64,000 nucleotides of DNA from an uncultured delta proteobacterium (GCA_963752595.1 CAVVYZ010000002.1:308745-372744), one strand, 5' to 3'. Positions 15,710-35,680 are shown, numbered from the stretch's first letter. Translations and numbers: made by a program. The notes: a model not told the origin generated them from the sequence alone.

Positions 15710-16064
15710 GGGGGCGTATTGGGTTCGACGGGGGTAGTTGAGGCGCAAGGAGCATGTCGAGGTCTGCTCCCTCGTAAAACAGGCAGAAACACTACAAGTG
15801 CCGACGATTATTCATACGCACTGGCTGCTTAGCGCAGCCCATCTCTGCATCAGCCCGCCTATCGGCTGATACGGGGGTGTCAAATTAAGATAGGCAACCC
15901 TGACGGCTGTGGCCCCTTCGGACGCCGGGGTATTTACAGGGGATGGAACACGGGAGGCCTGTCTATGGGCAGATCGTGTTCAAAGCTTTGTACATAGACT
16001 AAACATGTAGCTGCCTTGTGCTGAAGATCTTCGGACGGGGGTTCGATTCCCCCCGCCTCCACCA
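15710..16064 (+). ncRNA. ssrA: tmRNA; tag peptide (A)ADDYSYALAA* at 15800-15832
   Basis: 5' GGGGGCG..GGTTCGAC, tag ORF ending YALAA-stop, 3' GGGTTCGATTCCCCCCGCCTCCACCA. Confidence 0.97.
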
Positions 16065-16069
16065 TTAAC
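16037..16069 (+). repeat. attL (ssrA 3' end)
   Basis: GGGGGTTCGATTCCCCCCGCCTCCACCATTAAC. Confidence 0.9.
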
Positions 16070-16090
16070 TTGTTGTAATTATTAGATAAA

Positions 16091-16143: not shown

Positions 16144-16390
16144 TTATTCAGCACCTTTCTTGCCCTTTGAAAAGGGTATCACTTTGGCTTTTTTCTTCCT
16201 GATAGCTGTCACAACTTCAAACGATCCTTCATTCTCAACTTGGCGGTAACGGTCAAACGCCTTGTTTGTCAATCCTGATGCAACCCTTGCCTTATCAGTA
16301 CCAAGCATCTTTGCTGTTTCCGTTGCCGTGGTATGCTTCGTTCCAGGATATAGCGGAACATCTCTTAAACCTACCTCATTTGCAGCTCTA
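16144..16390 (-). pseudogene. Tyrosine integrase C-terminal remnant
   Basis: Manual translation RAANEVGLRDVPLYPGTKHTTATETAKMLG..ASGLTNKAFDRY..KVIPF..* resembles the box II region with catalytic Tyr; N-terminal part missing. Confidence 0.7.
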
Positions 16391-16818
16391 ATTTTAAAAG
16401 CAATCGAGAATGAACAGCTTAAGGATACACAAAAAAACTTAGATCTACAGAAGAGGTAGCAGAAACTTTAGAAAAAGATATAGAGGATATTCTTGCTAGA
16501 AATTCAAATCTGATTGGGAAAGACTTAAAGTTAGTTGAAAGACAAGTTCCTATAGATAGCGGAAGAATAGATCTTATCTATGAACATCTGGGTGGGAGCC
16601 TTGTTATTGTAGAAGTTAAGATGAACAAGATTGGGCGTGGAGCTATACAGCAGATTAATAGTTACATCAAGGAATTTAAAGCTAGAGAACCTAGGAAAAA
16701 GATCTTCGGGATTATTATTTGCGCTGGTGTTATGCCAGCCTATGAAGATGAGCTGAGGAAACAAAAGGGTATTAAGATAATGGTATATGGCTGGGATATA
16801 AAAGTTCAGCCATTGTGA
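16390..16818 (+). pseudogene. NucS/DUF91-like PD-(D/E)XK endonuclease, 5'-truncated
   Basis: Frame open from 16423: LEKDIEDILARN..L.LVERQ..GRIDL..VIVEVK..AIQQI.SY; no clear start; possible slip in the A-run near 16431. Confidence 0.7.
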
Positions 16819-16864: not shown

Positions 16865-17942
16865 TCATGCAAGACGTGGGGGATTAGACACAGAAAACTC
16901 CTCAATATATCCAGGCCTTTTATCAAGAACTGCCTGGCAAACTGCCAGCGTGGATCATCGATGAGGCTGCCCGCCCACGTGATTCTAGATGATCTTCTAG
17001 CCTTGTTCTTATTAGGCTTTCCAAGGTTTTAGTTGCATCTACTTTTAGGTTCACTTCCCGAACCAAGACATCGAACTGTGCTGCGGCAATGTTTGTCCAT
17101 CGCTTCGATAGACTTTGGATAAGGGACATGTGGTTGTTAAGTCGTGTTTGCTCGGTAGTATCGGGTGAATATAGTCTTGGAATAGAGTTTCTTGGTGTTC
17201 CACTGAGTGATATGTGTACTTGAAGTGAAGCTGGTCTAAAAAAGGGATGGAGCCAGTCGTTTGTTGAATTTGGTGGACCTGGCGTGATGGCAGCTTTATT
17301 ACCTTTTGCTGTACCTACAACATTACAGGAGTGACAGGCTGGAATGAGATTCCATGGTGAGCAAGAGAGCAGAGGAAATCCTGATTGGGATAGATAGTGA
17401 TCCAGCTCAGGTGTTCCGATCTCTCCATCACAGTAAGGGCAAATTACCATGGTAGGGTAGTAGCTGCAAAAGTCATCCTTGTACTTGCTGTTCGTGATGG
17501 ATCGGTCTCCACCAAACATGTAGCCGTTCCACTTTCTATCCTTATTAGTGCTCAGGAGTTTATAACACTGCTTAAAGAATTCTTTGACTTCGGTTGCTAA
17601 CTGGGTGTTGAAGCCAGGCAAGTTATTAAGGTCTTGGAAGTTGCCGCCTGAATAAAGCATCGCCTCTACTTTGTTCTGACGGCAGAATTCATCATAGAGC
17701 GCCTGCCGCGCAACTGGCATTGCCTGGGCGATGGACTTGATTCTGTTCTCCTGTCCTCCAAGACAAAATTGCCTCACCCATTCTGAATCCAACATGTGCC
17801 ATACATTCTGAACCCAGGCTGTGTTCACCATGGCTGAATTCAAACCCGGGTCTGCCAGCGCTTTCAATAGCCTTTTTTGGAGGACAATGATTTTTAAAAG
17901 CTGAACCGCGCTCTTCGGTAATTTAACTTGATGTAGTGCCAT
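16865..17942 (-). CDS. HNH endonuclease (Septu PtuB-like); probable frameshift near 16957 extends C-terminus to 16865
   Basis: CPYCD..ELDHYL....FP.L...WNLIPACHSCN; start overlaps ATPase 3' end. Confidence 0.85.
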
Positions 17943-19956
17943 CGTTGTTTGCTCTTAGTTGTTTTAGAATTGCCCTCAACTCTGCCCGGTGGAAACTGCT
18001 GCCAAGGATTGTTAGGATTGCCTCCAACTCACTCTCTCGATATTTCCATTCTGTCTTCATCAGCTTGTCAAGCAGCTCTACAGATCTGCTGCCGATGCTG
18101 CTTTCGCTTCCGAAGAGGTTCATGGTGACCTCGCCGGGGTCAGTGCCGAAGAGGCCGCCGGTGACGCCTCGTGCAATAATGCCATCATCTGTCTTGTCCA
18201 ACACAGTCACCTCCGCAGCAAAGGCATCGGTAAGCGCTATACTCGTGTGGGTTGAAATAATGACATTGGCATGGGTGTTCTCCAGCAGGCCCAGATCCAC
18301 CATTTCAACGATCTTTTGTTTCCACACATCGTTGAAGTGTGTTTCCGGCTCGTCGAAGAGGAGCAGAGACCCGTCTTGGCCGCGCAGGAGGTAAAACAAG
18401 CCCATTCGGCCGAGCAGCATCTGCTCGCCGTCGCTGAGCTGGTCATAGGTGATAATGATATCGTCGGATTCGCCATCAAAGGACTCATGCTGGTGGAGGC
18501 GTTTCATGGTGAGGGTAATGTCTTCCAGCAGACCGGTGCGCTCCCAATCCTTGAGGCGGGTGAAGACGTCCATGGGCGTGGAGTCGATTTCCTGGTCTGA
18601 ACTCAGAACGCGCAAGAATGCCTCCGCGCCTGTTCTGCTGCCATCCACCCGTTCGGCGATGAACTCGATATCCTTACTCGTGATGCCGAGGGGAAACGCA
18701 TCCTTGAGTCTCTCGGTAAGGCTGATCTTCTCGAACGGGCCGAGAGAGAAAACGGCGCGTCGGCGCCCAAACGGCTGGTCGAGAACTTCATCGGCCAGGG
18801 CTATAAGGCAGAACAGCTCCAGGTGCTGGCGCGGAGTAACGCGGTCGTCGTCGTGGTAGGTGAAACTCAGGTGCGTTGGCCAGAACCAGTCTATTTGTTC
18901 GAATACAGGGCGGGCATCTGTCAGAGTCCTATCTTTGGAATCATACCTCCCCAGGAGATAGTTTCTCAGGGATTCACGGCTGCTCTCTGATGTGCAACCG
19001 CTCAGTTCCCTGGCTGCTTGCCAGAGGGCAAGGGTAATGCCTGCGAAACGTAAATGATGCGGTTCGATGAGGAAATAGGAGTCATCCTGCGGTCCCTTGA
19101 GTGTCATGTGGTTGGCAAGGAGCTTCTTGAATATATCCTCCACCTGTCCCGGCTCTCTCTGCAAGAGCTCAAGGCTCTCCCTGATCATGCCCTTCAGCGC
19201 AGAACCTGGGATAGTCGGCCTGGTAACGCCTGTTGGCGGCGGAGTGGTCGTTGTACTGGTAGTAGTCGTAGTCGTGCTGGTTGTCGTGGTGCTTGTCGTA
19301 TTGCGGGTAAGTGCATTTGAAATAAGGATGTGTTGTGCTTCTTCCCATTCCTTATCCATGTCCCAGCCATGCGGGCGTTCATCCTCAGAGCTGTATTGAC
19401 CTTCTTCTTCATCCAGTGGGTGAAAGATCGGATGATCGATCTGCATCCAGGGGTAACAGTCGCCCGAGGTATAGGCGATGAGACGCTTTGGCAACCGGGA
19501 AAACAGTAACGGGCTGGTGATGGCGTCTGGGCCGGTGATCATTTCAAGCCCCTCAGCCAGGGGGTGATGTTCCCCTTTGCTCATGGTGGCAATAATCCTC
19601 TCCCAGTCGGGACGCCGTGCGCTGATGGGCACGGGTTTGCATGTGGCAAAAAAGGAAAGGGCATCCTTCCTGTTGGTACTATGGAGGAGCGCGGTCACTG
19701 CTTCGACCCCAAGGGTACGATCCCATGACAGCGTGACAGGCAGTGTCGGCCATTCTCTGCGGTTCAGCGCACGGAAGACATGGTAAAGCACCCGCAGTAA
19801 TGTTGACTTGCCGCTTCCGTTCACGCCGACCACGAAGTTTAACGCACCTTTGCGCGGCAGATTCAGGGTATTGGTGATGAGGTCCTCACGTCCGAAAATG
19901 ACACTGACATCATTGAGCGGGCCGCAGCGCGGGATATGGAGGTAACGTAGTCTCAT
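17923..19956 (-). CDS. ABC/AAA_21 ATPase (PtuA-like, restriction-system-associated)
   Basis: Walker A GVNGSGKS, signature LSDGEQ, Walker B LLLFDEPETHFN, H-loop STHT. Confidence 0.9.
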   Translation of the reverse strand: MRLRYLHIPRCGPLNDVSVIFGREDLITNTLNLPRKGALNFVVGVNGSGKSTLLRVLYHVFRALNRREWPTLPVTLSWDRTLGVEAVTALLHSTNRKDALSFFATCKPVPISARRPDWERIIATMSKGEHHPLAEGLEMITGPDAITSPLLFSRLPKRLIAYTSGDCYPWMQIDHPIFHPLDEEEGQYSSEDERPHGWDMDKEWEEAQHILISNALTRNTTSTTTTSTTTTTTSTTTTPPPTGVTRPTIPGSALKGMIRESLELLQREPGQVEDIFKKLLANHMTLKGPQDDSYFLIEPHHLRFAGITLALWQAARELSGCTSESSRESLRNYLLGRYDSKDRTLTDARPVFEQIDWFWPTHLSFTYHDDDRVTPRQHLELFCLIALADEVLDQPFGRRRAVFSLGPFEKISLTERLKDAFPLGITSKDIEFIAERVDGSRTGAEAFLRVLSSDQEIDSTPMDVFTRLKDWERTGLLEDITLTMKRLHQHESFDGESDDIIITYDQLSDGEQMLLGRMGLFYLLRGQDGSLLLFDEPETHFNDVWKQKIVEMVDLGLLENTHANVIISTHTSIALTDAFAAEVTVLDKTDDGIIARGVTGGLFGTDPGEVTMNLFGSESSIGSRSVELLDKLMKTEWKYRESELEAILTILGSSFHRAELRAILKQLRANNDGTTSS

Positions 19957-21675
19957 GTCAGTGACCGATCCTTCTCCAGTTGCTCGACCAGCCGCTCCAG
20001 CTCTCTAAGGCGCGCATGATCGCCGAGTCTAGGCTCGCGTTCCTCGCCTTCACGTGGTTCATAATCATCCAGTGTCAACCGGTATGTATTGCCGAAAACA
20101 AACTCCCCTGTGTCTCCTCTCTGTTCCTCACGGCTTATGTGGATGATCAGGCCTCGGGCAGCAAGGACGGCCAGGTGACCTTCAATTGCCTGGGGGTTTC
20201 TTCTGAGAGGTCCTACTTGGAGGTATTCGCTCAATCGCTGTGCAGTGAAATAACGGGCATAAGAAACACCGCCCACCATGCGTTTGATCTCGCTGAGCAG
20301 GAGCCTCTGCTCGCGGTTGAGTTCAGCATAGATACCGTCCGTACGATCCTGTAGGAGTTCTTCAATCTCCTGAATCATCGTACGACGCCAACGGGACAAT
20401 CTGGCTCCTGTCTCTTTAAGGACTGCGTCACGCTCACGTGCCTCGATAACGAGCTTGTCTCGATTAGCTTCCCGCCATTCAGCGGTGAGTCGGCCGGAGA
20501 AGGCGTGGGCGGAGAGGGATTTATTCATTTGTATTATCATTTGATTACTTGTAGTAGAAGCTTCTTTGATGTTACGGATTTCTTCGCAGGAAATTCGGAA
20601 ACGTTCAATTAGCTCCGTTGAAAACTCTGGCATATCGAGAGTCTTTAAAGCTTCTAGCGTGAGTCCTTCTGTGTTAGCGCCTCGAGCACGAGAAAGAATG
20701 CGACCGAGCTGTGCTTGTAATGAGTATACTATTAACTCTGGAGTTATGCCAGAGGTGGGCATCAGTCCTTTGATGTCTTGCCCAAAGCACATTGGAACTT
20801 GAGTAATAGCAATAGGAAGTGTGTGTGCCAAAATTTTACTTTTTACTACAACCATCACGGTTCCTTTGGGCACAACATTTGTTGCACTTGACTGCACAGC
20901 TTCTTCTGTGACGTGTTCCTCTGTATCATCAAGATAAAGCCTCTTAATATCCTTAGATGTTGCCCAAGGAATTTCCCCTGAATAAAAGTGTTCAATTCTC
21001 CTGCTGGGGGTTCCCCCTCCTACAATCTTCACCAAATCACCCAATTTAGGGCCACCCTTCCATTCAGATGGGGCGCCGAAAATTGCATCAAACATTGCCG
21101 GGAGCAAGTTCGGCGGTTTTGGCTTCAGCTTCTGTGAGGAGGCGGCGGATTTTCTCGACCTCTTGTAAAATCTCCACAATCTTTTGCTGCTCACTTAGGG
21201 GCGGAAGGGGGATGCGGAGTTTTGCTAGATCTGACGTTCGCAAGGATGGATAGGCTGGGTCCAAAGCCAGCTTCATCATATCCAGTGTGCATGTTAGATG
21301 ATAAAGGTACTCGGGATTGATCAGTGGGCCAGACACAAGCACTGCAAGATGGCTCACCACATAGGATGGCTCGTTTAGCAACGCACGTTTGTTGAGCGCA
21401 ACGGATGCTCCACTTTTTGGAATCAGCAGAGATCCAGCGGGCCAATTACGGAGACGATGCTTTTCTAGAGCTAAGTCGTTTAAGCGATCTGCTGTTGTCT
21501 TGATGTATGGGATTTGACAACGCCCAACATCCTGCATGCGCACAAATGGGTATGTTCCCCCTGCAAAAAAAGCGCCGCCCTGTGGTGCTCCATTTCCAGC
21601 ACCTACTTCGCAAATGGCTCCAAGGGCAACTAACGGCCAGGTTGAGGGTATGGTGTTCTGAGACGCCTGCATCAC
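19953..21675 (-). CDS. hsdS: Type I RM specificity subunit with C-terminal extension (one frameshift near 21105)
   Basis: Two TRDs (W..V.LG.IC..; GGGTPSR..Y.GEIPW), IPLPPLSEQQKIV, AFSGRLTAEWRE. Confidence 0.9.
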
Positions 21676-24185
21676 TTCACCTCAATAAGGTTAAGAAGTT
21701 TTCCAAGCCTCTTCTGCACCTCACCGTGGATGGCCTGAAGCTCACCGATGAGTTCGGCGGGCGGGCGATGCTGGCCGGCGTCGAAGACGAAGGGCTTGTG
21801 GCGTCCGGCGGAGAGGTTGAAGTCAAGGGCTTCGAGGCAATCGGGATCGAGGCGGTCGAGGAATTCTTTCTTCACCGTGGCATCGTCATCGAAGACCTTC
21901 AGGGTGTCACGTAGCCAGGAGAGATAGTCGGGATCGATGATGCCGTCCTGGTGCGTGGGTCTGGCGATTGGTTCTTGGGTCTCGGGGTCTTCACCCCAGC
22001 TTTCCAACTCCGCCCATTGGCGGACAGGGACGATCCAACTGAGCAGCGTCGGCTCGCGCTTGGACTCGCCCTCGTCGGACGGGGTGAGTTTCCCGCCTCG
22101 TGGTTGGATTCGAGGCTGCGCCGCCAGACATTGTAGCCATCGAGCTTGGCGAATTCGGTGAGAAGCGGCGTGAGGGCCTCGGCGGCCTGATCCACATCGG
22201 GCTCGGCAGGCGGTCTTCGGCTTCTTGTCTGGGAACGGGACGGCGGCAGCCCATTCCTTTACCTTGGCGGTCATTTCCTTGAGTACGGTCTTGAGGGCGT
22301 TCTGGCCGAACTGATCGAATTCGCGGTCGAGCAGGCCGCCATCGCGGACCTTCTTGTTCAGTTGGTTGGCCACTGACTTGACGTTTTTCTCGGCGGCGGC
22401 AAGGGCTTTTCCGCATCGGGTTTGCGAGCGGTAGCGTAGGCATGTATGATAGTCTGCTCGACAAGGGTTGCTGATTGTCTTCTCGAACTTGGGTCGGACG
22501 CGGGCGAGCACGACATCGTCATACTGGCGTGAGCCGCGTGAGTCAGCAGGGTCGAAGCGGAAAGTCCTGCGGCCATAGTTCGTGCAGCGGATAGGTATGG
22601 CCTTTGTCGCCGGACTTGTCAGGGAAGATTTTCAGGAATTCGTCATCCACGCTGCGCCAGCGTTCCTCCCAGTAGTCGGGCTGGTGGTAGTCCTTGGCTG
22701 TGGCGGCGGCACGGAGGGCGGCAAGGGTTTGGCCTTTCTTGTCCTCGGCCTCCCCTTGACGGTAGCGGTTCCAGGCGTCGAATTTGACCAGGGCATCCCA
22801 GAGGTCGTTGTCCTGGCCGTAGAGGGCCTTGCGTTTCTGGTCAAGTGAGAAGGCTTCGTCAGTGACCTCGTAAAACCAGACTTCGCGGGTGCGGGGTTCG
22901 GACCCTGCAGCCACGGGTTCGCCCGCTTTCTGGAAGAGCAGGATGGAGGTCTTCACGCCCGAGTAGGGCTGGAACATGTTGGCCGGGAGGGAGACGACGG
23001 CTTCGAGGGTGTTCTCGAATAGGAGCTGGCGGCGCAGCTCCCGGTGGGCCTTGGTGGCGCCGAACAGGACGCCATCCGGCACGATGACGGCGGCGCGCCC
23101 GCCGATCTTGAGCAGGTCGAGCATGAGCCAGACGAAGAGCAGCTCGCTCTTGGTGGTTAGTGGACCGCTGCCTTTGCCGGAACGCGGGAAACGGCCTGCG
23201 GTTCTCGCTGAGGTCGCCTTCGTCCACACTGCCGGTGAAGGGAGGGTTGGCGAGGATGTAGTCGTAGGTGCCGCTTTCGTCGTCTTTAAGCCGCTTGCTA
23301 AGCGAGTCGAGCTGATGGATCTCGGGTGACTCCAAGTCGTGGAGGATGAGGTTCATCCAGGCGATGCGGACCATGGTGCGGTCGTTGTCGTAGCCGTGGA
23401 AAAGGGAGCTGAAATTGAACTGTTGCGCCTTCGGGCCAGACGGGAAGGACATCGTGCGGTGTGCCGTCCCATTCGAGGCGGAGTACGTCCTTGTCGGTGT
23501 GCTGGGCCTTCCAGTGGAGAAGTGAGTTGAGCAGGAAGCCGCCGGAGCCGCAGGCTGGATCAAGGATGGTCTTGCCCAGCTCAGGCTTGAGCAGCTGCAC
23601 CATGAAGCGGATGACATGGCGCGGGGTGCGGAACTGGCCGTTCTTGCCGGACTCCTTCACCTCTTCGAGCAGATACTCGAAGATATCGCCCATGATGTCG
23701 GAGTTGACCGAGCGGGTGTCGAGCTGGCGGAAGAGATCATCGATAAGGCTGACGGCGCGCTTGAGGGTCTCGGTCTTGTTGACGTCGAGGATGAAGTAGG
23801 CATCGCTCAGACGGCCGGATATGCGGCCGAGGGTTGTGTTACCGTTCTGGGCAGGGCCTACGCGATCTTCCAGGCTGCGGAGCCACGGAAATACTGTTTC
23901 ATTGAGCAGCGGGAAGGAGGGATTCTGCCTGATGTAAGACCAGCGGCATTTCTCGTAGTTAGGTGGTGTTGTCTTTTCTTTCTCGTGCTTTTTCTTTTCC
24001 TCGTCTGTTAATGCGTAGATGGAGGTCCTTCCGGCTCCGACCCTTGTTCGGTCGAGGGCTTCCAATTGCCTGATGAACAGTAGATAGGTTATCTGTTCAA
24101 TGGCTACAAGCGGGTTAGACAGACCTGAGGACCAGAAGAGCGACCAGAGGTCGTGGACTTTACGTCGAAGTTGGGGTGAGAGCAT
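21672..24185 (-). CDS. hsdM: Type I RM N6-adenine methyltransferase with large insertion (several frameshifts)
   Basis: NPL..IEQITYLLF, GQFRTPRH, DPACGSGGFL, ANPPF, GRAAVIVPDGVLFG, FNLSAGRHKP. Confidence 0.9.
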
Positions 24186-24194
24186 ATGCGTTCC

Positions 24195-26955
24195 TTATGC
24201 GGCAATAGCCGTGACAAGTTCGAGGAGCTCGTTAAGGTCTGATTTTTCGAACAACTGTTCAGGATCTCCGATTGTAGAAAACGGCGGTTTCCGTCAGTGA
24301 TACAAGGGAAGTTATCCTTGCCTTCTGCATTACGGCTTTCCGCAATGTCCGCACGAACATGAGCTGGGTTGCCGTGAGCTGGGGATGACTGCGAACCCAC
24401 TCGTCAAAAGCCTGAGAGATAGTTTCCTCACGTGATGGAAGTGAGGCCACATTGAGTATATGGCGGAGGAAATCGGCCAGGCTTGCCTTGGGCTGGTGAT
24501 AGACTTCGCGCAGTCGTTCCTCAGTTACGAAGAGATCAGGACCGTTCAGTGCTGCGGCGATGGCATCAATGTCTTCGGGTGTGAGCTCCTCGCCCCTCCG
24601 GAGTCTCTGCAGTGCCGGGTTATCACCAGCGATGTCCTTGACAAGTGCCTCCACCTGGGCACGGTATGTTTCTGCAAAGGCACCCTCCCCGGATGGTCCG
24701 TAGATAATCCAGTGGCGCCTCTTGATCTGATCGGGAAGAGAGAGGCGAACAAAGGTGCCGGGAGGGCGACGGTTCCGAAACCTCATGAGCGGTGCAAAGG
24801 TTTCCTGCAGTTCCATGATGCGGGGGCAGGAAAGATTGCCCCAGAATGCAGCTGTCTGAGCAGCGGTGAGGGATTCAAGATGCCGTTGCACTTCAGGGAT
24901 GTTTGTTGGGAGTAGCGAAAGGTGTTCTGTAATTCGCTCACGAAGCTTATCGATTTCTCCGGCATCTGCCTTGAGATATGCGAGTGCGAGATGCTCGGTT
25001 TGATTTTCAAACTGAAGCTCCGGATACGAGCCGACAGTGGAGAAGCGTAACAGAGGCGCAATAGTGTGGGAAAAATGCGATATCCTTTCGTCTGTCAGGT
25101 CTTTCCATGGTTCGTCACTGCCTGCGAGAAACCGAATTTCTTCCGCATGCGGGGCAACGTTGATATTATCGAGGGGCAACGTGCCTACAAGATCACGAAG
25201 CTGGCGGACAGTGTATTCCATGGAAACGATGTCAGACCGGCCGGTGAGGATCTGAAGTTTTTCCAGGCGAAGACGGAACAGACGGGAAGGCAGCGGCTCG
25301 GAAACAGAACCAGTGCGGCCGTCTTTGTTTACCTGGAAATAATCAAAGTTGTTCCAGTGGTCGATGACGAGAAAGTCGGCTTTCTTTTTGCCAGTGAGAG
25401 GATCAGTCCAGGTGCGGGTGCCGCGGCCGAGCATCTGCCAGAACTTCACCTTGCTGAAGACTGGTTTGGCAAAAACAAGGTTGCGTAAAGAGGGCACATC
25501 AATGCCGGTATCGAGCATGTCAACGGAGACGGCAATTCGGGGAAAATCCTTGTTCTTGAAATCGTCGAGGGTTTTTTCAGCACGCTCCATCTGACTATCA
25601 ATGACCTTGGCAATGCCCTTCCGTTGCAGGTCAGGGTAGAGGCGGTTAAAGCTCTTATAGAGTTCCAGGGCATGCTTGTGGGATACGGCAAAGATGATAG
25701 TCTTGGAAGGTAATGTTCCCACGGCATCTTTAATGGCATTATCCATAAACTCCCTGACAATGGCGTCATTTGTGCCGGTGTTTGTGACCTTCCGCTCAAG
25801 ATCGGACCCCTCAAAACTGAACTGTTCAGGATCGACGCCTTGTTCAAGAACCTGCTTTTTCACTTCGTCGGGCAGGTCGCCTGGTTTCATGCCCTCGATC
25901 TGGAATCCGGTGCGGGCGACATGGACGGGACGATAGGGGACCAAGTATGTGTCTCGCACTGCTTCATCGTAGCCATAGTAAAATGTCGGGCTGTCTTTTG
26001 GGCATTCGAAAAGCTTGAACGTATCATGGTCGATGAAGTCGGTCGGTGTAGCAGTAAGCCCAAGAAGCAGGGAATCGAAGTGATCGAAAATCCCACCGTA
26101 GCTCTTTTTCTCATAGATCGAACGGTGACTTTCATCTGCGATTATCAGGTCGTAGTAGCCAGGTGAGAGCCGTTGGTAAAGCGACATCATTCCGGGGTAT
26201 GTAGCAAAATGAATTTGTGCGTCTTTGTCGATAGCCCCTCCTTCTATCCATGATCTGGGGGCGCCGGGCAGGTGCTCCTTGAATGCGCCTAATGCCTGCT
26301 TCACAAGCTCACGGCGGTCAGCGAGAAAGAGGACACGCTGGATTCGTTCCTGGCGTTGGAGCAGTTCAACTAGGGCCACAGCGACGCGGGTCTTACCGGT
26401 CCCGGTGGCAAGAACCATGAGGAAACGCCTCTGGGAAGCTTCTATACGCTCGGCAATGGTCTTGACCGCCTCTATTTGATAAGCACGATCGATAATGCGA
26501 TCGAGTGGCATTGTGCCAGTGAGCTTTTGTCCGAACTTGTCGAGGTGGGCAAGTCGCAGGAGGTCTTCCTCTGCAAAGAATCCGCTTACCTTTCTTGGAG
26601 GATAGAGATTCCGATGCCAAAACCAGATTTCATCACCGTTGGCCAGAAAGACAAAAGGGTCAATGCCGTGTTTTGTTCGAAGCGCATCAGCATAGTCTGC
26701 TGCCTGACGTTCACCTTCAAGGGGATCTCTGCTGGAACGCTTTGCTTCGACAATGGCAAGCGGTCGGCTGAGATGATCCAATAATGCGTAGTCAGCAAAC
26801 TCATTTTTGATGCCGTAAACGCCTTCCGGTTCGCGCACCATGGAGGTAGTCTCGATGAGGAACTCTTCAATCAGGCGCCGACTTCCTATGGCCCAACCGG
26901 CACGACCGAGTTGACGGTCGATTTTTTCCTGACGAGTCTTGCTTTCAAAGTCCAT
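24195..26955 (-). CDS. hsdR: Type I RM restriction subunit (EcoAI/EcoEI-like; frameshift near 24295)
   Basis: ADY.L..IVEAK nuclease, LATGTGKT, DESHRS, GLTATP, MLDTGIDVP, QMLGRGTR. Confidence 0.93.
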
Positions 26956-27236: not shown

Positions 27237-27266
27237 GGGGGTTCGATTCCCCCCGCCACCATTAAC
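27237..27266 (+). repeat. attR (displaced ssrA fragment with 3-bp deletion)
   Basis: GGGGGTTCGATTCCCCCCGCC---ACCATTAAC, identical to attL except for missing TCC. Confidence 0.9.
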
Positions 27267-27388
27267 CATTTATTATCATTAATCTTCTCCAAGAAACCTG
27301 CGCCGCAAAGCAGGAACATATGAAGAGCACTGAATATTGGCTATGCCGTAGTCTGTTTTTGATCTCTACAGACATGTTCAGCCGGTGT

Positions 27389-32255: not shown

Positions 32256-33956
32256 ATGAGAGATCACTCCAGGATCGTGGTAGTAGGGGGCTCTGCCGCC
32301 GGCCCCAAGGCAGCAGCAAAGGCAAGGAGAATAAACAGCGGGGCAGAGATCGTCATCCTTCAGAAAGACCCGGATCTGTCCATGGCATCCTGCGGCTATC
32401 CATACTATGTGGCCGGCGTCTTTGATGACAGGAATATGCTCGTGAGCACCGGTAACGGGGTTACCCGGGACCCTGTGTATTACCATGGAGCAAAGGCAAT
32501 CGATGCGAGGACGAACACCGAGGTGACCGACATCTCCACGGTCGAGCATGTCGTGTTCTCCCGGAATCTCCTGACCGGAGAAACCGATGCCATGGACTAT
32601 GACAAGCTCATCATTGCAACCGGTTCTCTTCCTATAATGCCGCCCGTCCCGGGAACGGATCTCAAAGGGATTTCAACGTTGCAGTCCATGAAAGATGCCG
32701 ATTTTCTCCGCGGGGTACGGGACGAGCGGAAGGTGAAGAAGGCTGTCGTCGTGGGCGGCGGGCTCATAGGGATAGAGACCTGCGAAGCCCTCCGGATTGC
32801 AGGAATCGAGGTCACCGTTATTGAGCTCGCTCCCCAGCTGGTCACCTTCCTCGACTGGGAGCTCGCAAAGCTCGTGGAAAACCATGTGCGGAGCAAGTCG
32901 GTGAATGTGCTCACCGGTAGCCCTGTCGCCGCTTTCCTTGGGCAGAACGGCATATTGAACGGGGTCAAGCTCGAGAACGGCACCGAAGTACCGTGCGATA
33001 TCGCGGTGGTTGCCGTGGGAGTCCAGCCCAACGTGGAGCTTGCACGGCGGGCAGGCTTAACGATCGGCATCACCGGCGGGATCGAGGTCAACGAATACAT
33101 GCAGACCTCCGACCCGGATATCTATGCTGCAGGAGACTGCATCGAGACCGTAAACCTGATCACAGGCAAAGAGGTGTTCGCTCCCTACGGCGACCTCGCA
33201 AACCTCCAGGGAAGGGTGGCAGGAGAGAACGCGGCTTCCGGAAACAGGGCAGTCTTCAGGGGCACGATCCAGACCGGCATCTGCAAGGTATTCGATTTCT
33301 CGGCCGGTTCAACCGGGCTCTCGCAAAGATCTGCGGGAAAGAACGGCTTCACCGATATCATCTCCGTCATTACCGCAGGCCCGGACAAGCCGGGGTATAT
33401 GAGCGGCAAGCTCCTGGTAACGAAGCTGGTTGCTGACAGGACCACCGGCAAGATACTCGGCGCCCAGTGTATAGGTCCGGGAAATGTCAGCAAGCAGGTT
33501 GCCCAGTGGGCAATGGCCATCCAGGGCGGATTATGCGTCGAAGACCTTATCAACGCAGATCTCCCCTATGCCCCGCCATTCTCTCCGGCGATCGATCACT
33601 TCATCACCACGGCGCATGTCATGCAGAACAAGATGGAAAATCGGTTCAAGGGCATATCATCCCTTGCAGTCAAGGAAAAGCTGGATAAAGGCGAGAAGCT
33701 CTTTCTCCTGGATGCGAGGGGATCGGATGAGTTCGAGTCCACCCGTCTCGGCATCGGCGAAACTCTCATGCCTCTTCACGATTTGAGGAAAAGGTCCGGA
33801 GAGTTGCCGGAAGACAGAAATGCGGAAATCATCTGCTACTGTACGGTTTCGCTGCGAGGGTATGAGGCTGCTCTTGCCCTTGAGGCATTGGGCTGGAGAA
33901 ATGTTAAGGTCATGGAAGGAGGCATAGCCGCCTGGCCGTTTTCAAAGGAGAAATAG
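32256..33956 (+). CDS. CoA-disulfide/persulfide reductase with C-terminal rhodanese domain
   Basis: GGSAAG, SMASCGYPYY, GGGLIG.E, AAGDC, YAPPFS; rhodanese YCTVSLRGY..GGI.AW. Confidence 0.9.
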   Translation: MRDHSRIVVVGGSAAGPKAAAKARRINSGAEIVILQKDPDLSMASCGYPYYVAGVFDDRNMLVSTGNGVTRDPVYYHGAKAIDARTNTEVTDISTVEHVVFSRNLLTGETDAMDYDKLIIATGSLPIMPPVPGTDLKGISTLQSMKDADFLRGVRDERKVKKAVVVGGGLIGIETCEALRIAGIEVTVIELAPQLVTFLDWELAKLVENHVRSKSVNVLTGSPVAAFLGQNGILNGVKLENGTEVPCDIAVVAVGVQPNVELARRAGLTIGITGGIEVNEYMQTSDPDIYAAGDCIETVNLITGKEVFAPYGDLANLQGRVAGENAASGNRAVFRGTIQTGICKVFDFSAGSTGLSQRSAGKNGFTDIISVITAGPDKPGYMSGKLLVTKLVADRTTGKILGAQCIGPGNVSKQVAQWAMAIQGGLCVEDLINADLPYAPPFSPAIDHFITTAHVMQNKMENRFKGISSLAVKEKLDKGEKLFLLDARGSDEFESTRLGIGETLMPLHDLRKRSGELPEDRNAEIICYCTVSLRGYEAALALEALGWRNVKVMEGGIAAWPFSKEK

Positions 33957-33996
33957 GAGCTTCCGCCTCGATGGGACCCAAGGCTTCGGTCAGGAC

Positions 33997-35358
33997 TTAT
34001 GCAATCCCTTCCGTCCCTTGAGCGACCCTCTTGAAGGCCTTGCCTTGGACAAAACAATAGGGGCATTCATCAGGGGGGGTATCACCGAGGTGGATGTATC
34101 CGCATATAGGGCACCGCCAGGCCACCTGAGACCCTAGGGCCTCGCTGAAATCACCGCTCCTGTCTTCCCACGCCATAACCGGCACCTCATTCAGCGGGGG
34201 CATGACCGGCCTGTATGCGCTGAAGAGCTGTCCTGCAAGGATAAGGTGCTGGATCTCAGAGGTGCCTTCATAGATCCGAGCAGCCGATATCCCGGAATAA
34301 CTTTTCTATGGGATACATCTTCGTATATCCGTACCCGGCAAAGATCTGGAGCGCATCGCTGACCACCTCGAACGCAGCCTCGGTTGCATAGAGCTTTGCA
34401 ATGGAGGAAGAAACATTGTCTCGGATGCCTTTATCGACTTCGTACGCAGCCTTCCAGGTCAGAAGCCGGGCAGTCTCGATCTTCATATACATGTCAGCGA
34501 GCTTGAACTGGATGGCCTGGTAATTTGCGAGCGGAGAGCCGAAGGTCCGCCGCCTTTTGGTATAGTCGATCGCAAACTCCATGGCCGACCGGGCTGCGCC
34601 GACTCCGAATGACCCGATGGTAGGACGTGTCCTGTCAAAGGTCTTCATGGCGAGGAGAAAACCCTCTCCGGGTTCTGCAAGGATATTTTCCTTCGGCACC
34701 CTCACGTCTGTAAAATTGCACGCCAGCAGTGTTCGAACACCTCTGGCCCAGCTTTGGGATGTGTTTCCCGGCTGGAGACGCCGTCCCAGTCCATGTCCAC
34801 GACGAAGGCGCAGATCCCCTGATGGGCGAATTTCGGGTCTATTGTGGCGAAGACGCTCATGTAATCGGCAATCCCGCCGTTCGTTATCCAGTATTTCGTG
34901 CCGTTCAGGATATAGTCGTCACCGTCTTTTTTCGCATAGGCACCTCATCCCTGCGACATCAGACCCCATCGTGGGCTCGGAGGTGCCGAAGCAGATGAGC
35001 TTGAACTCCCTGGCAATCTTGCTCAAATATCCTTTCTTGATATGTTCTTTGTCCGAGAGCAGGATCGGCGCCATCCCAAGGGAATTATCAAATATCGATG
35101 TGGCGAGCCCTGGGCATCCGGCAGCGATCTCCTCCACCCGATGGTTCCTTCGACCATGCCGCAGCCCCTGCCCGCCGTACTCTTCAAGGGGATATCCCCG
35201 TTCATGAGGCCTTCATCAAAGGCCTTGCGGAGTACGGTAAGGGGAGTTTCATCCAGCTCATCATAGTACCAGGCTACCGGCAGGATCTCTTTTATGGTGA
35301 ATTCGCGGGCTCTGTCCCGTATGGCGAGCTGCTCGGGACTCAACGTGAAATCCAGCAT
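33997..35358 (-). CDS. Acyl-CoA dehydrogenase with C-terminal rubredoxin-like domain (several frameshifts)
   Basis: MLDFTLSPEQ, TSEP..GSD, LNGTKYWITNG, QAIQFKLADM, IYEGTSEIQ continuing into WRCPICGY..CPYC. Confidence 0.82.
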
Positions 35359-35680
35359 ACCTCTCTCCTTTTAGCTCCTGTATGTACGGCATTCAAGCAG
35401 CATGCCGGTGCCGTTTTAAGGAACACATTCTTCCATTTTATGTTGAAAGGATAAGATGAAGGGTAAGCGTGGGCATTACAGACTCAAGGGCTTGCAGTCG
35501 GAGGAAAGGAATGCCTCGAATAGCTGTTGCTTGTTACATGAATATCACCCGGTAATCAAAGCCCTCTGGCCTCGGAGAAGAGCAAAGGCCAGGACCTTGC
35601 ATTCACGGCAGATGGGATTATATTGTTAACTACCTGATTAACTGAACGTTCAATACATTGTCAAAGAGGAGAAATGAGGT

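What the first reader, a model, noticed from the sequence alone, without database searches (positions are those of the whole stretch)
16865..26955. Type I RM operon joined to a Septu-like ATPase-HNH pair: candidate RM-guarded defence system
Seen: five co-oriented genes hsdR-hsdM-hsdS-ATPase-HNH with tight junctions (9-nt gap R/M, 4-nt overlaps M/S and S/ATPase, 20-nt overlap ATPase/HNH) that make up nearly all the island cargo. Known: ABC ATPase plus HNH pairs form Septu (PtuAB), which retrons Ec78/Ec83 restrain; PrrC is held latent by the type I enzyme EcoprrI; PARIS senses anti-restriction proteins. Restriction-associated ATPases of this kind are known as a gene neighbourhood. Inference: no RT is present, so the enlarged HsdS/HsdM may restrain a toxic ATPase-HNH effector that fires when phage anti-restriction proteins attack the RM complex.
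Basis: partly seen in the sequence, partly recalled or inferred. Interest (0 to 1): 0.85.

Follow-up and report, generated by a model that had tools for sequence, protein, structure and literature searches.

The report
Restriction methylase carrying a Septu-type nuclease
This is a conserved five-gene bacterial operon that joins a type I restriction system to an ATPase and nuclease of the Septu kind; a small winged-helix domain on the methylase subunits is predicted to tether that pair, which likely fires when the methylase complex meets unmarked invader DNA, even in the many relatives that lack the usual restriction nuclease.

Summary
Observation confirmed: hsdR-hsdM-hsdS-ATPase-HNH with the stated junctions fills about 90% of an 11.2 kb island in the tmRNA gene; at least ten frame breaks are probably assembly errors. 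The gene order is catalogued (TIGR04435 describes a sister clade); I found no experimental paper. The pair is bound to the methylase genes: 45 of 46 loci with enough flank, and 13 of 13 in a second sample. The gene directly before the ATPase usually ends in a winged-helix domain, on HsdS or, in two clades, on a second HsdM copy that often lacks its catalytic motif: the mark of an adaptor. hsdR is missing from 23 of 64 decidable loci, yet 19 of 21 checked keep the NPPF motif and their HsdS recognition domains still vary. That favours an effector gated by unmethylated target DNA (0.5) over a pure guard against anti-restriction proteins (0.3). Binding is untested; the complex predictor was unavailable. 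This scan noted the operon type and the HsdS winged helix before on other DNA (e1-3196907, e1-695410); its move onto HsdM copies and the hsdR-less loci are not in the lines shown of those notes.

The parts
15710..16064 (+). tmRNA gene, host integration site
   Evidence: ARAGORN; the same site carries another element in G004
16037..16081 (+). left attachment repeat (tmRNA 3' end)
   Evidence: family D2
16147..16389 (-). 3' remnant (81 codons) of an integrase gene
   Evidence: 91% to residues 335-415 of the 415-aa ORF at the same site in G004; naming it an integrase rests on its position and on recall, not on a family scan
16423..16818 (+). 5'-truncated NucS-like PD-(D/E)xK nuclease fragment
   Evidence: PF01939 1.1e-13; stop-to-stop frame
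16865..17942 (-). HNH nuclease (PtuB / PDC-M01B-like, about 356 aa in L039), one frame break near the 3' end
17923..19956 (-). PtuA-like ABC ATPase, 677 aa, Walker A GVNGSGKS, signature LSDGE, Walker B LLLFDEPETHFN
19177..19296 (-). most variable segment of the ATPase (aa 221-260): Thr-rich run plus a RAMP-motif look-alike
19953..21675 (-). HsdS with two recognition domains and a C-terminal extension of about 175 aa, one frame break
20076..20315 (-). winged-helix domain in the HsdS extension (proposed adaptor for the ATPase)
   Evidence: AlphaFold2 model, three helices and a hairpin at block pLDDT 80-95; Foldseek winged-helix hits; profile tests
21672..24185 (-). HsdM, about 820-835 aa with a clade-specific insert of about 300 aa; motifs DPACGSGGF and NPPF; at least 7 frame breaks
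24195..26955 (-). HsdR of the EcoAI-like family, nuclease D..ExK and DESH motifs intact, one frame break
27237..27281 (+). right attachment repeat (copy of the tmRNA 3' end lacking 3 nt)

Best explanation
The operon encodes a type I restriction-modification enzyme plus a PtuA-like ATPase and an HNH nuclease, and a winged-helix domain on HsdS is predicted to tether that pair to the methylase complex, which likely holds it quiet on the host's methylated DNA and likely switches it on when HsdS meets an unmethylated target site. Shown here: gene content and order, folds, intact motifs, the near-obligate link to hsdM and hsdS, the winged helix on whichever methylase subunit precedes the ATPase, repeated absence of hsdR. 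Inferred: physical tethering (about 0.75); gating by the methylase complex (about 0.65); unmethylated DNA as the main trigger (about 0.5). Where HsdR is present, as in this window, the pair would be a second arm that still works when HsdR is blocked or outrun; where hsdR is absent it would be the only arm. Whether it cuts the invader's DNA nearby or kills the cell (tRNA or host DNA) is open; PtuAB relatives do either. A DNA mimic such as Ocr in the same groove could trip the same switch, so a guard function may come as a by-product.
For: Link to hsdM/hsdS in loci found from ATPase motifs alone: 45 of 46 with at least 4 kb upstream, 33 of 33 with at least 7.5 kb; HNH next in 66 of 68; the three exceptions at 1.5 kb or more are an IS insertion, a truncated ATPase and a deletion. 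Second sample from 1,604 genomes: 13 of 13 new loci have hsdS directly upstream and hsdM in the operon. A profile trained only on HsdS tails finds, among 1,115 ORFs, the tails of second HsdM copies (E 6.5e-8 to 0.04) and of gene X (0.003); X is itself a divergent HsdM (hhalign 98.4%, E 8.7e-15). HsdS is long when next to the ATPase (median 510 aa, n=41) and of normal size when a second HsdM lies between (408 aa, n=11). Leave-one-out scores 23 of 23 and 33 of 33 at 10 bits or more; 49 control tails at most 4.0 and 8.5. 8 of 15 such second HsdM copies lack NPPF. Winged-helix type and carrier follow ATPase clades; hsdR-less loci fall in several separate branches (quick tree). hsdR absent in 15 of 50 and 8 of 13 decidable loci; NPPF kept in 19 of 21; in 14 hsdR-less pairs with ATPases at least 55% alike, 24 of 28 recognition-domain comparisons are 29% or less. 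Precedent: MADS uses methylation for self/non-self and its mad5 could not be deleted unless mad2 or mad3 was also deleted (10.1101/2023.03.30.534895, passages).
Against: No binding, toxicity or defence data. Two hsdR-less loci (L012, L066) have lost NPPF yet keep ATPase and HNH motifs; a strictly methylation-gated nuclease would be autoimmune there unless another enzyme methylates or HsdS no longer binds (the L066 HsdS was not detected by my HsdS profile). In the second sample only 7 of 13 HsdS tails score 20 bits or more on my two profiles; four look winged-helix-like by eye only, one is unclear, and L127 has no extension. The long and short winged-helix types are not detectably related (hhalign E 0.12). 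HsdR acting in trans is not excluded: 4 of 5 genomes tested hold HSDR_N genes elsewhere and 1 of 5 an EcoEI_R_C gene. Recognition-domain swaps could predate hsdR loss. HsdR keeps its nuclease motif in 36 of 36 aligned, so the pair does not replace a dead HsdR. Loci are related, so counts are not independent.
Confidence: 0.5

Rival explanations
1. Pure guard or decoy: the methylase complex restrains a toxic ATPase-HNH pair and releases it only when a phage anti-restriction protein (Ocr, ArdA, Stp-like) attacks; hsdR-less loci are decoys.
For: Closest folds are retron PtuA, which are toxins held by a partner (PMC12673091 passages). No intact stand-alone pair seen. HsdR is intact where present. 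L012 and L066 keep the effector with a degenerate methylase. PrrC and PARIS are precedents (PMC12707154 passages).
Against: hsdR absent in 23 of 64 decidable loci while NPPF is kept in 19 of 21 and recognition domains keep varying, including a branch (L027, L073, L074) that lacks hsdR throughout.
Confidence: 0.3
2. An independent Septu-type pair (for example ATP-sensing) that merely shares the operon and promoter.
For: Septu is often embedded in other systems (10.1101/2024.01.29.577857, parts 1-2 and passages). L127 has the gene order without an HsdS extension. HNH genes are swapped between lineages (27% identity beside 70% ATPase and 80% HsdM).
Against: That paper puts only 0.7% of Septu inside Hma, whereas this clade was not found intact without hsdM/hsdS; the winged helix moves between subunits but stays next to the ATPase gene.
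Confidence: 0.08
3. The winged helix is a DNA-binding part (operon autoregulation or help in loading on DNA), not a protein adaptor.
For: Sequence and fold hits are ordinary DNA-binding winged helices such as GntR, Fur, MarR, TFIIE, all weak (E 0.03 or worse).
Against: A regulator need not be fused in frame to a methylase subunit in every clade, nor match the ATPase clade.
Confidence: 0.08
4. In this particular genome the operon is a decaying pseudogene cluster in an immobile island.
For: At least 10 frame breaks, deleted integrase, truncated NucS-like gene.
Against: Compensating indel pairs a short way apart; similar indel clusters in unrelated genes of the same contig; the 2-kb ATPase is unbroken; intact homologues are common. 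This bears on this copy only, not on the family.
Confidence: 0.15

Closest known systems
TIGR04435 restriction system-associated AAA family ATPase (NCBIfam)
   Same: Same name-giving association with restriction genes; best NCBIfam hit of the window ATPase; the short-winged-helix clade passes its cut-off (L024, 800 bits).
   Different: Window ATPase scores 101 of 300 bits: a sister clade. Zero papers hold the accession or the name. The winged helix and hsdR-less forms are not part of the name shown.
Septu type I and retron type I-A PtuA/PtuB (Ec78/Eco7, Ec83; PDB 8EEA, 9E8Z, 9KJX)
   Same: ABC ATPase plus HNH; top fold matches (Foldseek E 6e-10; VIA Z 17.6, rmsd 7.2 over 334 residues).
   Different: No RT; larger ATPase and HNH; near-obligate hsdM/hsdS partners. 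About 11-16% identity to the solved PtuA chains.
PrrC with EcoprrI
   Same: Nuclease activity tied to a type I RM locus, activated on its inhibition (PMC12707154 passage).
   Different: PrrC is one tRNA anticodon nuclease gene embedded in a type IC locus; here a two-gene ATPase-HNH pair follows hsdS, and hsdR is often absent.
MADS (mad1-8)
   Same: m6A methylase and specificity subunit with an ATPase-nuclease pair, methylation-based self/non-self.
   Different: Eight genes, MAD4 is Toprim-like; window ATPase 23 bits against a 420-bit MAD3 cut-off.
PADLOC candidates PDC-M01 / PDC-M62 and OLD-ABC plus HNH dyads beside BREX
   Same: Best profile hits of the HNH; ATPase-HNH dyads proposed as back-up effectors of RM-like systems (PMC12839542 passages).
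   Different: Weak, partial profile matches (60 bits); the main text of the PDC preprint does not name PDC-M01 and its supplements were closed.

Membership tests
Type I restriction-modification (EcoAI-like) | HsdR with nuclease and DEAD-box motor motifs | tested here: met
   NF046051 256 bits is under its 550 cut-off, so the EcoAI label is approximate
Type I restriction-modification (EcoAI-like) | HsdM with motif I and NPPF; HsdS with two recognition domains | tested here: met
   (read across frame breaks by comparison with L039)
Type I restriction-modification (EcoAI-like) | methylation and restriction activity | not testable with these tools
   needs methylome and plating
TIGR04435 | score over the 300-bit cut-off | tested here: not met
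   101 bits
TIGR04435 | association with restriction genes | tested here: met
Septu type I | PtuA-fold ABC ATPase followed by an HNH nuclease | tested here: met
Septu type I | HNH assigned to PtuB profiles | tested here: inconclusive
   the best 25 of 35 PADLOC hits are PDC-M01B / PDC-M62B
Septu type I | occurs and works as a stand-alone two-gene system | tested here: not met
   occurrence only: no intact stand-alone locus among 46 plus 13 with flank; function untested
Retron type I-A (Septu type II) | reverse transcriptase gene before ptuA (PMC8565338 passage) | tested here: not met
   upstream gene is hsdS; crude YADD motif screen of neighbours
PrrC | single ATPase-anticodon nuclease gene within the hsd locus (HEPN domain, recalled) | tested here: not met
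   no HEPN or PrrC hit among those shown; nuclease is a separate HNH gene
PARIS / MADS | TOPRIM-type nuclease partner | tested here: not met
   partner is HNH; MAD3 23 of 420 bits
Kleisin C-terminal winged helix (ScpA/Scc1-like, recalled analogy) | homology or fold match to kleisin winged helix; binding to the ATPase head | tested here: inconclusive
   no kleisin among hits shown; binding not tested

The most novel reading that the evidence does not exclude
A distinct class of type I systems in which the methylase complex is a programmable sensor for a second, HsdR-independent effector: a winged-helix adaptor, displayed once per complex on HsdS or on a dedicated, often catalytically dead HsdM copy, docks on an SMC-like PtuA head as a kleisin does, and unmethylated target DNA or a DNA mimic in the HsdS groove fires an exchangeable HNH nuclease. 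Type I RM would then stand where the retron RT-msDNA stands in type I-A retrons.
Probability: 0.35. Interest if true: 0.85.

Novelty: new variant of a known kind. Interest (0 to 1): 0.62.

Why it matters
It would show that the type I methylase core can drive an effector other than HsdR, explain hsdMS loci that look orphaned, and give the PtuAB family a third control module beside ATP sensing and retron DNA. The adaptor that moves between HsdS and a second HsdM gives a direct, cheap test: delete or transplant about 100 residues. The family is spread over many phyla at low frequency (13 new loci in 1,600 sampled genomes).

Tried and rejected
RAMP/Cas7 decoy in the ATPase: Pfam RAMPs E 3.4e-4, 21.6 bits against a 22.1 cut-off. 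The stretch aligns with the native TLPG...ETVERLRQEL segment, a sister protein (P0043) has a half-way form, it lies in the family's most variable part, and the isolated segment hits nothing in NCBIfam at 1e-3 or PADLOC at 1e-8: most likely chance. Dead HsdR replaced by the pair: rejected, 36 of 36 keep the motif. Kleisin homology: no support. HsdM insert: no convincing fold or family (best TM 0.29); HsdS tail in the Atlas, leads under 0.9 only. Stand-alone winged-helix genes: the 26 shorter hits read by eye mostly look like HsdS or HsdM tails. Complex prediction: not available, nothing folded; no verdict. Wide VIA search of the HsdS model: not run. E. coli genomes: no blastn match with the L010 ATPase gene. 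Relatives: no full-length ATPase homologue in 40 related genomes. Promoter scan: 11 sites against 8.1 +/- 2.5 by chance. Krishnan et al. 2020 (ABC ATPase classification) was not held, so it may already list this architecture. Ten paper searches showed no paper on this operon; subscription papers and bioRxiv supplements are not covered.

Full report
Observation. Family scans agree. The operon sits between a tmRNA gene and a copy of its 3' end. A same-genus genome, G004, carries a different 3.9-kb element at the same site with a whole 415-aa integrase-like ORF, of which the window keeps only the last 81 codons; the island is probably immobile now. None of 40 related genomes has a full-length homologue of the ATPase. 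There are at least ten frame breaks against the intact homologue L039; similar indel clusters lie in unrelated genes of the contig, so assembly error is likely but unproven.

The effector pair. The ATPase has intact Walker A, signature and Walker B motifs, the HNH its CxxC, DH and N..C..CN residues. An AlphaFold2 model (pLDDT 73.9) matches retron and Septu PtuA best. TIGR04435 is the best NCBIfam hit but under cut-off (101 of 300 bits); a sister clade passes (800 bits). 354 proteins matched at E 1e-10 or better among 7,992 candidates scored.

Neighbourhoods. Scans with two ATPase motifs gave 101 loci (the genome and metagenome scans stopped after 5 and 6 of 64 parts). 74 hold the clade's DEP[ED]TH[FL]N motif. 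Of these, 45 of 46 with at least 4 kb upstream and 33 of 33 with at least 7.5 kb have hsdS or hsdM upstream; 66 of 68 have an HNH gene next. The three misses at 1.5 kb or more are broken loci. Four searches of 401 genomes each gave 2, 5, 9 and 1 hits, four of them the seed genomes; all 13 new loci have hsdS directly before the ATPase and hsdM in the operon; 9 have an HNH by my profile and 4 a shorter HNH-type gene by motif. Three of 4 plasmid hits were opened and show the same linkage.

The adaptor. The window's HsdS ends in about 175 extra residues that fold as a winged helix plus a helix. Among 120 homologues picked by that tail (so biased upward) it is 67% alike against 25% for the second recognition domain. 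Reading the gene before the ATPase in each locus showed such a tail on HsdS in most, on a second HsdM in a clade that includes Chloroflexota, and on a gene X in a clade that includes Melainabacteria; X is a divergent HsdM. A profile trained only on HsdS tails ranks these HsdM tails next among 1,115 ORFs; one unrelated 92-aa ORF fell in that range. HsdS is of normal length when a second HsdM carries the tail (median 408 against 510 aa; L030 at 506 aa is an exception). 8 of 15 second copies lack NPPF. Leave-one-out scoring separates 56 tails from 49 controls. A second, shorter winged-helix type marks the TIGR04435 clade and is not detectably related to the first. A library-wide search found 350 clusters; of the best 150, 100 are HsdS, 26 HsdM-like, 24 unassigned and mostly short (that profile included HsdM tails). 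In the second sample only 7 of 13 tails score on my profiles and L127 has none. With two HsdM and one HsdS per methylase (established knowledge), both layouts would show one winged helix per complex. Binding was not tested.

hsdR is optional. Of 86 first-survey loci, 35 have hsdR, 15 lack it with at least 3 kb visible, 36 are undecidable; Pfam on 55 neighbours found no HsdR. In the second sample 8 of 13 lack it. These fall in several branches of a quick tree of 65 ATPases (the careful search did not finish). 19 of 21 checked keep NPPF (L013 and L051 are fragmented and were left out); L012 and L066 do not. Recognition domains differ as much between hsdR-less relatives as between hsdR-bearing ones (fixed residue windows). 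Where present, HsdR keeps its nuclease motif (36 of 36). HsdR in trans is possible in some genomes.

Mechanism. The constant core is HsdM, HsdS, the winged helix, the ATPase and the HNH. Retron PtuAB is a toxin held by RT-msDNA and cuts tRNA-Tyr or ssDNA, Septu PtuAB cuts DNA under ATP control (PMC12673091, passages). Here the methylase complex likely takes the controller's place. Kept methylase motifs and shuffled recognition domains without HsdR suggest the switch is an unmethylated target site (0.5); a pure guard (0.3) fits the PtuA ancestry, PrrC and PARIS (PMC12707154, passages) and the two degenerate loci. The two are not exclusive, since DNA mimics bind the same groove (Ocr-bound type I structures appear). 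MADS gives a precedent for both methylation-based discrimination and lethal loss of mad5 (10.1101/2023.03.30.534895, passages; PMC13662399, abstract, introduction and discussion).

Novelty. The neighbourhood is catalogued and ATPase-HNH dyads have been proposed as back-up effectors (PMC12839542, passages; 10.1101/2024.01.29.577857, parts 1-2 of 5 and passages; PMC8565338, passages). Ten searches showed no paper on this operon, but Krishnan et al. 2020 was not held and bioRxiv supplements were closed. Earlier notes of this scan describe the operon type and the HsdS winged helix on other DNA; I had noted the winged helix before seeing them. Verdict: real, conserved, untested; a new variant of a known kind; interest 0.62.

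Noticed in passing
window 19177-19296 (-): The ATPase's most variable segment holds a Thr-rich run with mixed codons and a near-perfect RAMP/Cas7 motif (PF03787 E 3.4e-4); the only match to that motif pattern in the six frames of G000. Probably chance, but the segment may be a sensor or oligomer arm under diversifying pressure.
   Followed up: partly
window 16147-16818: Integrase remnant and NucS-like fragment point away from each other and both lack their 5' ends at about 16390-16420: one deletion likely removed both starts.
   Followed up: partly
L111 (G004:C6, about 144450-148370): A 3.9-kb element in the same tmRNA site with a 415-aa integrase-like ORF and a 381-aa ORF; a frameshifted 52-60% relative of the latter lies on G000 contig C30 near another integrase-like gene.
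   Followed up: no
window 33714-35421: 17 single-base indels against G004 in ordinary metabolic genes: patchy assembly error.
   Followed up: partly
window 21800-22700 (hsdM): Clade-specific HsdM insert of about 300 aa with no known family or fold.
   Followed up: partly
L010, L041, L042, L075, L113: HsdS has a further domain of about 75 aa after the winged helix in this gammaproteobacterial-type group.
   Followed up: no
L012:5488-7917 and L066:6338-7771: hsdR-less loci whose only HsdM lacks NPPF while ATPase and HNH motifs are intact: possible methylase-turned-scaffold.
   Followed up: partly
L027, L073, L074, L119, L124, L126, L128: Rearranged order hsdS-ATPase-HNH-hsdM without hsdR; the HsdM in L027, L073 and L074 is of another subfamily (GAGQYFTPR).
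   Followed up: partly
L091 vs L117, L121 vs L122: HNH genes only 27-33% alike beside ATPases 70% alike: effector swapping.
   Followed up: no
L027, L051, L062, L069, L126; L066: AbiE genes often lie just upstream of hsdR-less loci; a TIR-STING gene precedes L066.
   Followed up: no
L103, L104: Two whole operons on contigs from the viral collection.
   Followed up: no
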